A stretch of DNA of 51,874 bases from sequence record PZ386979.1. One strand, 5' to 3'. The position numbers and the translations under genes are program-made. Source of the stretch: a phage. The notes under the pieces are model-generated. The model searched no databases and had not been told where the DNA came from. It worked only from the letters and a program-made list of their open reading frames with translations. Of the stretch, positions 20,626 to 20,853 are shown in pieces. Every line of letters starts with the position of its first letter. The first letter of the stretch is position 1.

Positions 20626-20853
20626 TCACAGACTGCAATCAGCGTTTTTAAAGTTATCAATACTTACCCACTGAAAATTAAACGGATAGCCAGCCTTAAC
20701 AAGAGTGCGGTCGCCAACTCGTTTCACTCCGAAAATAGCAACTGAATACTGCATTCCGCTATTTTCATAAATAGCCGTGCATTCACGTTTAGGCATATTT
20801 GCACATCCAGTCAGTGCAACGGCTGCAATCAAAACGGCGATTAACTTTTTCAT
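20626..20853 (-). CDS. cor: Cor/Llp-like outer-membrane lipoprotein (putative receptor-blocking superinfection exclusion)
   Basis: 75 aa; signal peptide with lipobox LTGC; AAGGAG RBS; convergent with tail genes as cor is in phi80/N15/T1-type phages. Confidence 0.55.
   Translation of the reverse strand: MKKLIAVLIAAVALTGCANMPKRECTAIYENSGMQYSVAIFGVKRVGDRTLVKAGYPFNFQWVSIDNFKNADCSL

What the first reader, a model, noticed from the sequence alone, without database searches (positions are those of the whole stretch)
20626..20853. Cor-like lipoprotein convergent with the tail operon
75-aa lipoprotein (lipobox LTGC) placed right after tail genes, as Cor in phi80/N15/T1-type phages and Llp in T5, which block FhuA-type receptors to exclude superinfection. 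It has its own element-type promoter.
Basis: partly seen in the sequence, partly recalled or inferred. Interest (0 to 1): 0.5.

Follow-up and report, generated by a model that had tools for sequence, protein, structure and literature searches.

The report
Cor receptor-blocking lipoprotein of T1-like phage
This small gene is the already-annotated Cor lipoprotein of a T1-like coliphage, most likely made early in infection to switch off the FhuA receptor so that no further phages can attach; it is an ordinary, known feature.

Summary
Window 20626..20853 (-) is a 75-aa ORF with a signal peptide, lipobox LTG|C, a strong RBS, a copy of the phage's repeated promoter-associated motif, and a terminator shared with the convergent tail/receptor-binding operon.

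The interpretation also holds. The window is a Hanrivervirus (Drexlerviridae), about 99% identical to phage Fulano1. The protein passes NCBI's curated Cor model (70 bits, cut-off 31) and PHROG 1119 (5e-29). It is 56% identical to T1 Cor and 34-37% to the characterised Cor proteins of phi80, N15 and HK022. It is 100% identical to the annotated exclusion protein of JLBYU41, a phage shown by experiment to need FhuA.

[quoted passage not shown] Function was not tested here.

Verdict: already known, low interest. The side observation on the 18-21-nt Drexlerviridae repeat is the only mildly new item.

The parts
20626..20853 (-). cor CDS, 75 aa including the TGA stop at 20626-20628: Cor-family superinfection-exclusion lipoprotein
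   Evidence: ORF list. NCBIfam NF047972 70.3 bits against cut-off 31. PHROG 1119 5e-29. 100% identical to JLBYU41 gp59. 56% identical to T1 Cor.
20806..20853 (-). Signal peptide, residues 1-16 (MKKLIAVLIAAVALTG)
   Evidence: Direct reading of the translation. Weak Pfam LPAM_1 match over residues 1-18 (E 0.0012).
20803..20814 (-). Lipobox L14-T15-G16-C17. Cys17 is the predicted lipidated first residue of the mature protein, and Ala at +2 predicts outer-membrane sorting.
   Evidence: Direct reading. Cys17 is invariant in 19 Cor homologues.
20862..20867 (-). Ribosome-binding site AAGGAG, 8 nt before the ATG
   Evidence: Direct reading of the sequence.
20885..20890 (-). -10-like hexamer TATAGT, 19 nt downstream of the repeat
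   Evidence: The block is conserved in W011D, Motto and SRT8 while the flanks diverge.
20910..20927 (-). Drexlerviridae direct repeat ATAGCACTTTTTGCTAAA, the 'element-type' promoter-associated motif, 74 nt upstream of the cor ATG
   Evidence: The same repeat (aaATAGCACnnnTTGnTAAAA, about 76 nt before start codons) is described for phage TLS in PMC11447400.
20598..20617 (.). GC-rich hairpin between the convergent genes; probable bidirectional intrinsic terminator
   Evidence: Terminator scan found it on the + strand. Folding gives -14.0 kcal/mol on + and -16.8 kcal/mol on -, z about -3.3 to -3.4. On the minus strand GGGGC-GAAA-GCCCC is followed by TTTTCATT.
19956..20594 (+). 212-aa gp23-like protein of the FhuA-type receptor-binding cassette (annotated 'membrane associated protein')
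   Evidence: 61% identical to phi80 gp23 (9e-100), 56% to the T1 homologue and 99% to that of JLBYU41.
19649..19954 (+). 101-aa gp22-like protein of the same cassette (annotated 'outer membrane protein')
   Evidence: 71% identical to phi80 gp22 (1e-51), 60% to the T1 homologue and 99% to that of JLBYU41.
16027..19605 (+). J-like central tail tip protein (1192 aa) that precedes the cassette
   Evidence: ORF list. Annotated tail protein or tail fiber in Henu8, Fulano1 and JLBYU41.

Best explanation
The ORF is the cor gene of a virulent T1-like phage (Hanrivervirus, Drexlerviridae).

Shown by sequence: it encodes a pre-lipoprotein with a signal peptide and the lipobox LTG|C. Its mature 59-residue domain belongs to the Cor family and has the small beta-rich fold of T5 Llp. 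That fold carries two further invariant cysteines, placed like the Llp disulfide that ties the two termini together.

Inferred from family knowledge: after Lgt/LspA/Lnt processing, the Lol pathway places the protein in the inner leaflet of the outer membrane, because residue +2 is Ala. There it binds the periplasmic face (plug) of the phage's own terminal receptor, FhuA. This locks FhuA in a state that the phage's receptor-binding proteins cannot use. Further FhuA-dependent phages (T1-like, phi80-like, T5) can then no longer adsorb or inject, and ferrichrome uptake and colicin M or albomycin sensitivity are lost as a side effect.

In a lytic phage this both excludes superinfection and keeps progeny from being wasted on FhuA in cell debris, as proposed for T5 Llp.

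The gene is transcribed on its own, away from the late tail operon. It has a copy of the phage's repeated promoter-type motif and stops at a hairpin shared with the tail operon. This arrangement would allow expression before the late genes. The timing is inferred, not shown.
For: - Identity as Cor: NCBIfam equivalog NF047972 at 70.3 bits against cut-off 31. PHROG 1119 at 5e-29 over residues 1-74. tblastn hits to T1, phi80, HK022, N15 and mEp-phage Cor. The closest database cluster is named 'phage exclusion lipoprotein Cor'.
- FhuA as target: Cor is 100% identical and the two receptor-binding cassette proteins are 99% identical to those of JLBYU41. A fhuA knock-out, complementation and loop deletions show that JLBYU41 depends on FhuA (PMC10373560). 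The three-gene cassette after J is the one shared by T1, HK022, N15, ES18 and phi80 and by the FhuA-using BASEL phages (PMC13164509; PMC8594841).
- Expression signals: RBS, repeat plus TATAGT, and terminator.
Against: - No functional test exists for this protein or, as far as I could find, for any Drexlerviridae Cor. The experimental work is on phi80, N15, HK022 and mEp167 Cor, which are only 34-37% identical.
- The molecular mechanism of Cor itself is described as not yet elucidated (bioRxiv 10.64898/2026.03.26.714494).
- The promoter role of the repeat and early timing are unproven. The TTGnTA part sits 21-22 bp from the -10 element, too far for a normal sigma-70 -35 contact.
- Cor-like HMM hits also occur in BtuB-using phages, so family membership alone does not fix the target.
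Confidence: 0.8

Rival explanations
1. It is Cor and it excludes FhuA-dependent phages, but not by an Llp-like one-to-one jam of the FhuA plug. [quoted passage not shown] Examples would be altering the neighbourhood of FhuA or blocking DNA entry.
For: [quoted passage not shown] The Cor mechanism is stated to be unresolved. Structural similarity to Llp is modest.
Against: The cysteine pattern is shared with Llp, and the best fold match is Llp in its FhuA-bound form. [quoted passage not shown] Cor blocks all FhuA functions, including ferrichrome uptake, which points to FhuA itself (citing Uc-Mass 2004).
Confidence: 0.15
2. It is a Cor-family lipoprotein that blocks a receptor other than FhuA, such as BtuB, LptD or YncD, as in other Drexlerviridae whose receptor modules have been swapped.
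For: Drexlerviridae swap receptor modules frequently. Cor-like proteins are found by HMM in BtuB-using phages. Related Warwickviruses are not FhuA-dependent.
Against: Cor is 100% identical and the receptor-binding cassette 99% identical to those of FhuA-dependent JLBYU41. The cassette is 61-71% identical to that of phi80, which uses FhuA. The only match to the LptD-complex 'phage lipoprotein' 9rps_D is over the signal peptide (E 2.2).
Confidence: 0.03
3. It is a lysis lipoprotein (an o-spanin of the Rz1 type) or an unrelated small moron lipoprotein, not a receptor blocker.
For: Small phage outer-membrane lipoproteins are often spanins. There are weak PHROG hits to Rz-like spanins (E about 0.1).
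Against: Those hits cover only the signal peptide, residues 1-24. The gene is far from the lysis genes, and T1-like phages are described as using a unimolecular spanin in the lysis cassette. There is a strong full-length match to Cor models.
Confidence: 0.01
4. It is a conserved but unexpressed or decaying ORF.
For: No transcript or protein data were available here.
Against: The reading frame is intact in 243 phage records. Amino-acid conservation persists down to about 33% identity with invariant Cys, Gly and Phe. The RBS is strong, a promoter-type repeat is conserved across genera, and a terminator is present.
Confidence: 0.01

Closest known systems
Cor of Hanrivervirus and T1-like phages (JLBYU41 gp59, JLBYU09, Henu8 gp45, Fulano1 gp25; T1 Cor)
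   Same: Same gene. It is 100% identical to the JLBYU41 and JLBYU09 proteins, 96-99% to other Hanriverviruses and 56% to T1 Cor. The position (after J plus two small genes), the convergent orientation and the roughly 500-bp AT-rich gap to exonuclease VIII all match.
   Different: Nothing of substance. T1's own cor has only a degenerate copy of the upstream repeat.
Cor of temperate phages phi80, N15, HK022 and mEp167, the experimentally characterised FhuA-inactivating lysogenic-conversion lipoprotein
   Same: Same family by the NCBIfam equivalog model. The lipobox, the invariant Cys pair and the AGYPF-x-W/F-x-W/Y-V motif are shared. The position after the gp22/gp23-like cassette downstream of J is the same, and so is the receptor, FhuA.
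   Different: Identity is only 34-37%. In the temperate phages cor is co-directional with the tail genes and acts as a prophage-expressed moron. Here it is inverted and has its own phage-type promoter motif in a virulent phage. Here the receptor-binding cassette is closer to that of phi80 (61-71%) than of T1 (56-60%), whereas Cor is closer to T1's.
Llp of phage T5 (lytic conversion lipoprotein; PDB 8A60 with FhuA, 7QJF)
   Same: Small outer-membrane lipoprotein of a virulent siphophage that uses FhuA. The size is the same, with a lipidated Cys plus a terminus-tying Cys pair. It is the best PDB match by sequence profile and by fold. Its mechanism is the template for Cor: periplasmic binding to the FhuA plug, with loops 7 and 8 folding inward.
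   Different: About 18-22% identity, significant only at profile level. Llp is paired with the single receptor-binding protein pb5, not with a gp22/gp23 cassette. The AGYPF motif is not shared.
Receptor-blocking lipoproteins for other receptors (Rtp-type LptD blocker; BF23 and BtuB-type Llp-like proteins)
   Same: Same logic: a small lipoprotein encoded beside the receptor-binding locus that binds the periplasmic face of the phage's receptor.
   Different: No meaningful sequence similarity to the LptD-complex lipoprotein 9rps_D beyond the signal peptide. The target receptor differs.

Membership tests
Cor (phage exclusion lipoprotein, NCBIfam NF047972 / PHROG 1119) | Full-length match to the curated family model above its cut-off | tested here: met
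   NF047972 equivalog: 70.3 bits against cut-off 31, E 1e-19, residues 1-73. PHROG 1119: 5.3e-29, residues 1-74.
Cor (phage exclusion lipoprotein, NCBIfam NF047972 / PHROG 1119) | Lipoprotein signal peptide with a lipobox and a non-Asp +2 residue (outer-membrane lipoprotein) | tested here: met
   MKKLIAVLIAAVALTG|CAN read directly. The lipobox Cys is invariant in the alignment. There is a weak LPAM_1 match. Actual lipidation and localisation were not tested.
Cor (phage exclusion lipoprotein, NCBIfam NF047972 / PHROG 1119) | Conserved mature-domain signature: a Cys about 8-10 residues after the lipid Cys, the AGYPF motif, and a C-terminal Cys | tested here: met
   C25, G55, F58 and C73 are invariant and P57 nearly so in 19 sequences, including T1, phi80, N15 and HK022.
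Cor (phage exclusion lipoprotein, NCBIfam NF047972 / PHROG 1119) | Genomic position directly after the J-like tip protein and the two-gene gp22/gp23-type cassette | tested here: met
   Order in the window: 16027-19605 (J), 19649-19954, 19956-20594, then cor. This is the same order as in T1, phi80, N15, HK022 and KarlBarth.
Cor (phage exclusion lipoprotein, NCBIfam NF047972 / PHROG 1119) | The carrier phage uses FhuA as terminal receptor | tested here: inconclusive
   Not tested for this isolate. JLBYU41, with an identical Cor and a 99% identical cassette, is FhuA-dependent by experiment.
Cor (phage exclusion lipoprotein, NCBIfam NF047972 / PHROG 1119) | Expression excludes FhuA-dependent phages and abolishes FhuA transport functions | not testable with these tools
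   Needs plating or adsorption assays and ferrichrome, colicin M or albomycin assays.
Llp (T5 lytic conversion lipoprotein) superfamily | Detectable sequence homology to Llp | tested here: inconclusive
   Single sequence against PDB: 8a60_B E 0.044 over residues 1-70. Cor-family profile: E 0.0029. Llp is the top hit both times, but about a third of the profile alignment (residues 1-52) is the signal peptide.
Llp (T5 lytic conversion lipoprotein) superfamily | Same fold as Llp | tested here: met
Llp (T5 lytic conversion lipoprotein) superfamily | Intramolecular disulfide linking the N- and C-terminal ends (Llp C11-C58), required for FhuA binding | tested here: inconclusive
   The equivalent cysteines (mature C9 and C57) are invariant in the Cor family, and the Llp disulfide is documented. 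Bond formation itself was not testable.
Llp (T5 lytic conversion lipoprotein) superfamily | Encoded next to a pb5-type receptor-binding protein | tested here: not met
   The neighbours are gp22/gp23-type proteins, with no pb5 homologue. I therefore file it as Cor and not as Llp proper.

The most novel reading that the evidence does not exclude
The most novel reading still open concerns regulation, not the protein. The cor copy of the Drexlerviridae 18-21-nt repeat (ATAGCACnnnTTGnTAAA, with a -10 element fixed 19-20 nt downstream) may belong to a non-canonical, phage-specific promoter class. Its TTGnTA sits too far upstream to serve as a normal -35, which would imply a phage-encoded factor or an unusual RNA polymerase contact. 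Cor would then be co-regulated with the early genes. The function of this repeat is listed as an open question for T1-like phages (PMC11447400). A second, weaker possibility is that the Hanrivervirus Cor, at 34-37% identity to tested Cor proteins, has a different exclusion spectrum.
Probability: 0.3. Interest if true: 0.35.

Novelty: already known. Interest (0 to 1): 0.1.

Why it matters
For annotation, it confirms that this window is a FhuA-targeting T1-like phage carrying the full J / gp22-like / gp23-like / cor host-recognition and exclusion module. This lets the receptor be predicted from sequence.

Cor proteins have practical relevance. T1-like phages are notorious laboratory and fermenter contaminants. 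Cor also limits co-infection in phage cocktails and disables FhuA, affecting iron uptake and colicin M, albomycin and microcin J25 sensitivity.

None of this is new for this gene. The identical protein is already deposited and annotated. No long-standing question becomes testable through this finding. The one exception is marginal: the promoter-type repeat upstream of cor is a clean, isolated copy that could be used to test what the repeat does.

Tried and rejected
- Pfam gave nothing above threshold: only LPAM_1 and a weak 'Phage_lipoprotein' hit over the signal peptide. Pfam has no usable Cor model.
- The word-indexed protein search returned only close relatives. The exhaustive phmmer search gave 16 hits, enough for an alignment.
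- A canonical sigma-70 promoter for cor was not found. The consensus scan's only minus-strand hit, TTGATT-16-TATTAT at 21046-21019, lies about 165 nt upstream and is no better than chance: 4 sites found against 4.8 expected. TTGCTA and TATAGT are 21 bp apart, so I do not call them a standard -35/-10 pair.
- I tested whether the cor copy of the repeat carries the hairpin seen at most other copies. It does not (z -0.2).
- Rfam found nothing credible in 20400-21500 (best E 0.87). The intergenic region has no meaningful tandem repeats.
- I considered a spanin or a different-receptor blocker and rejected both (see rivals).
- I tried to read Wietzorrek et al. 2006 (Rtp genome, cor cassette), but it is not held.
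- A Cor-FhuA complex prediction and a check of the C25-C73 distance in the model were not possible with the tools.

Full report
**What is there.** Window 20626..20853 on the minus strand is an ATG-to-TGA ORF of 75 codons. Its product is MKKLIAVLIAAVALTGCANMPKRECTAIYENSGMQYSVAIFGVKRVGDRTLVKAGYPFNFQWVSIDNFKNADCSL.
- The N-terminus is a classical bacterial lipoprotein signal: a basic n-region, a hydrophobic core, then lipobox L-T-G-C with Cys17.
- The residue after the lipidated cysteine is Ala. By the established +2 sorting rule this predicts transfer to the outer membrane through the Lol pathway.
- AAGGAG lies 8 nt before the ATG.
- The gene is convergent with the + strand genes that end at 20594. 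Between them sits a GC-rich hairpin (20598-20617) that folds significantly on both strands. It is followed by a T-run in each direction, so it is a plausible bidirectional terminator.

**Where the window comes from.** The region is 98.2% identical to Escherichia phage vB_EcoD_Fulano1, and the first 25 kb are 99.2% identical. Other close relatives (Henu8, herni, aaroes, JLBYU41) are classified as Drexlerviridae, Tempevirinae, Hanrivervirus. The window is a virulent T1-like coliphage genome. In these records the orthologous ORF is already annotated 'Cor superinfection exclusion protein' or 'putative superinfection exclusion protein'.

**Identity of the protein.**
- It passes NCBI's curated equivalog model for 'phage exclusion lipoprotein Cor' (NF047972) at 70.3 bits against a cut-off of 31.
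- It matches PHROG 1119 'Cor superinfection exclusion protein' at 5e-29 over its full length.
- tblastn against 50,697 phage records finds 243 records. Identity is 100% in JLBYU09, 93-99% in other Hanriverviruses, 83% in W011D, 56% in T1, 51-60% over the mature part in Dhillonvirus phages, 37% in phi80 and 34% in HK022 and N15.
- An alignment of 19 homologues, including T1, phi80, N15 and HK022, has invariant C17, C25, V38, G55, F58 and C73 and a nearly invariant AGYPF motif.

Conservation at the protein level across lineages whose DNA no longer aligns shows that this is a real, selected gene.

**Context.** Directly upstream on the + strand lie three genes:
- the J-like tail tip gene (16027-19605);
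- a 101-aa gene (19649-19954), 71% identical to phi80 gp22 and 60% to its T1 homologue;
- a 212-aa gene (19956-20594), 61% identical to phi80 gp23 and 56% to its T1 homologue.

This J / gp22 / gp23 / cor arrangement is the 'cor cassette' shared by T1, HK022, N15, ES18 and phi80, all of which use FhuA. It is also shared by the FhuA-using Drexlerviridae and Dhillonvirus phages of the BASEL collection (PMC13164509; PMC8594841).

The strongest evidence on the receptor comes from JLBYU41. Its Cor is 100% identical and its two cassette proteins are 99% identical to those of the window. JLBYU41 was shown to be FhuA-dependent by knock-out, complementation and loop-deletion experiments (PMC10373560).

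**How it most likely works.** The mechanism is inferred from relatives.
- Cor of phi80, N15 and mEp167 inactivates FhuA functions.
[quoted passage not shown] The plug is held in a non-native state, and extracellular loops 7 and 8 fold inward over the phage-binding site. Llp has a lipidated Cys1 and a Cys11-Cys58 disulfide that is required for FhuA binding.
- The window protein has the same pattern: mature Cys1, Cys9 and Cys57, all invariant.
- Llp is the best PDB hit for the single sequence (E 0.044) and for the Cor profile (E 0.003).
- Among viral models, T5-like 'receptor-blocking' lipoproteins follow directly after a Dhillonvirus Cor.

What is shown is family membership, the signal and lipobox, the cysteine pattern, the fold similarity and the genomic context. 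What is inferred is localisation, FhuA binding, the exclusion phenotype and the timing.

**The promoter claim.** Upstream of cor lies ATAGCACTTTTTGCTAAA (20910-20927, minus strand), followed 19 nt later by TATAGT (20885-20890). The motif starts 74 nt before the ATG.
- The motif occurs 19 times in the window and 23 times in T1 with at most 2 mismatches.
- It is the direct repeat described for phage TLS (aaATAGCACnnnTTGnTAAAA, about 76 nt before start codons). Its function is explicitly listed there as an open question (PMC11447400).
- In the window, 14 of 19 copies have a >=5/6 match to TATAAT exactly 19-20 nt downstream, against 1.1% of random positions (p about 6e-24). An RBS and a start codon follow about 30-45 nt later.
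- The block upstream of cor is conserved in W011D, Motto and SRT8 while the surrounding sequence has diverged. In T1 it is degenerate.

It is not a standard sigma-70 promoter, because TTGnTA lies 21-22 bp from the -10 element. No transcript data were available.

**Orientation.** In virulent T1, W011D, Motto, SRT8, KarlBarth and this phage, cor is inverted relative to the tail genes. In temperate phi80, N15 and HK022 it is co-directional. An independent transcription unit fits the need of a lytic phage to make the blocker before the late genes, as T5 does with llp. That T5 expresses llp early is my own recollection (Decker et al. 1994) and was not checked here.

**Rivals.**
- A mechanism that depends on other outer-membrane proteins cannot be excluded. 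I give it about 0.15.
- A different receptor target is very unlikely, given the identity to JLBYU41 (0.03).
- A spanin or a dead ORF is effectively excluded (0.01 each).

**Verdict.** The gene is already known and annotated, including an identical protein in GenBank. Novelty: already known. Interest: 0.1. The only items with some residual novelty are side observations on the Drexlerviridae repeat, listed separately.

Noticed in passing
window, 19 sites, e.g. 20910-20927(-), 31797-31814(+), 32838-32855(+), 39142-39159(-), 44941-44958(+), 47922-47939(+); T1 locus L011, 23 sites: The Drexlerviridae direct repeat ATAGCACnnnTTGnTAAA is coupled to a TATAAT-like hexamer at a fixed 19-20 nt downstream: 14 of 19 copies at >=5/6 against a 1.1% background, p about 6e-24. 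An RBS and ATG follow about 30-45 nt later. The TTGnTA part sits 21-22 bp from the -10 element, too far for a normal -35. The repeat's function is an open question in the TLS paper (PMC11447400)..
   Followed up: partly
window 6330-6347(-) and 10091-10108(-); T1 (L011) motif 5' ends (minus strand) at 15086 and 18850: Two copies of the repeat lie antisense inside the late structural operon. One is just upstream of the major capsid gene and the other sits between the major tail gene and the next gene. They occupy syntenic positions in T1, and three of the four copies (one in the window, both in T1) lack a properly spaced -10 element; window 10091-10108 has a weak TAGCAT (4/6) at 20 nt. This suggests a role other than an ordinary promoter, such as a factor-binding site or antisense control.
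   Followed up: no
window and T1, the spacer and -10 region of the repeat units, e.g. window 32856-32881(+), 46623-46654(+), 41165-41194(-): 27 of 36 repeat/-10 units carry a significant hairpin (z < -1.5, mean z -2.5). The hairpin either abuts the -10 element or encloses it in its loop. The stem sequences differ from unit to unit, so the structure is conserved but the sequence is not. These are probably terminators or attenuators of the upstream gene nested inside the next promoter. The cor copy, which has no upstream co-directional gene, lacks one (z -0.2)..
   Followed up: partly
window 19649-20853: The module is mosaic. The two receptor-binding cassette proteins are closer to temperate phi80 (71% and 61%) than to T1 (60% and 56%), whereas Cor is closer to T1 (56%) than to phi80 (37%). 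GC content also drops to about 35-39% across 19900-20400, against about 45% in the J gene. This is consistent with independent exchange of the receptor-binding genes and cor.
   Followed up: partly
window 20854-21354: There is a 500-bp AT-rich (30-34% GC) gap with no convincing gene between cor and the exonuclease VIII gene. It holds TATATA and CACACA-type low-complexity runs and a divergent promoter-like site for the recombination genes (TTGACT-16-TACAAT at 21298-21325). The gap has a similar size in T1. Fulano1 annotates a 41-aa ORF here as 'exodeoxyribonuclease VIII', which looks spurious. Rfam and tandem-repeat scans found nothing.
   Followed up: partly
public records MG065636-MG065687 ('Campylobacter phage A14a, A13a, A136, A16a ...') and ON843697 ('Pseudomonas phage Motto'; L009): Records labelled as Campylobacter jejuni or Pseudomonas aeruginosa phages are 95-96% identical to this coliphage region (for Motto, a 71% identical Cor). 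They carry the FhuA-type cor cassette. The host labels look doubtful; contamination by T1-like coliphages is plausible.
   Followed up: no
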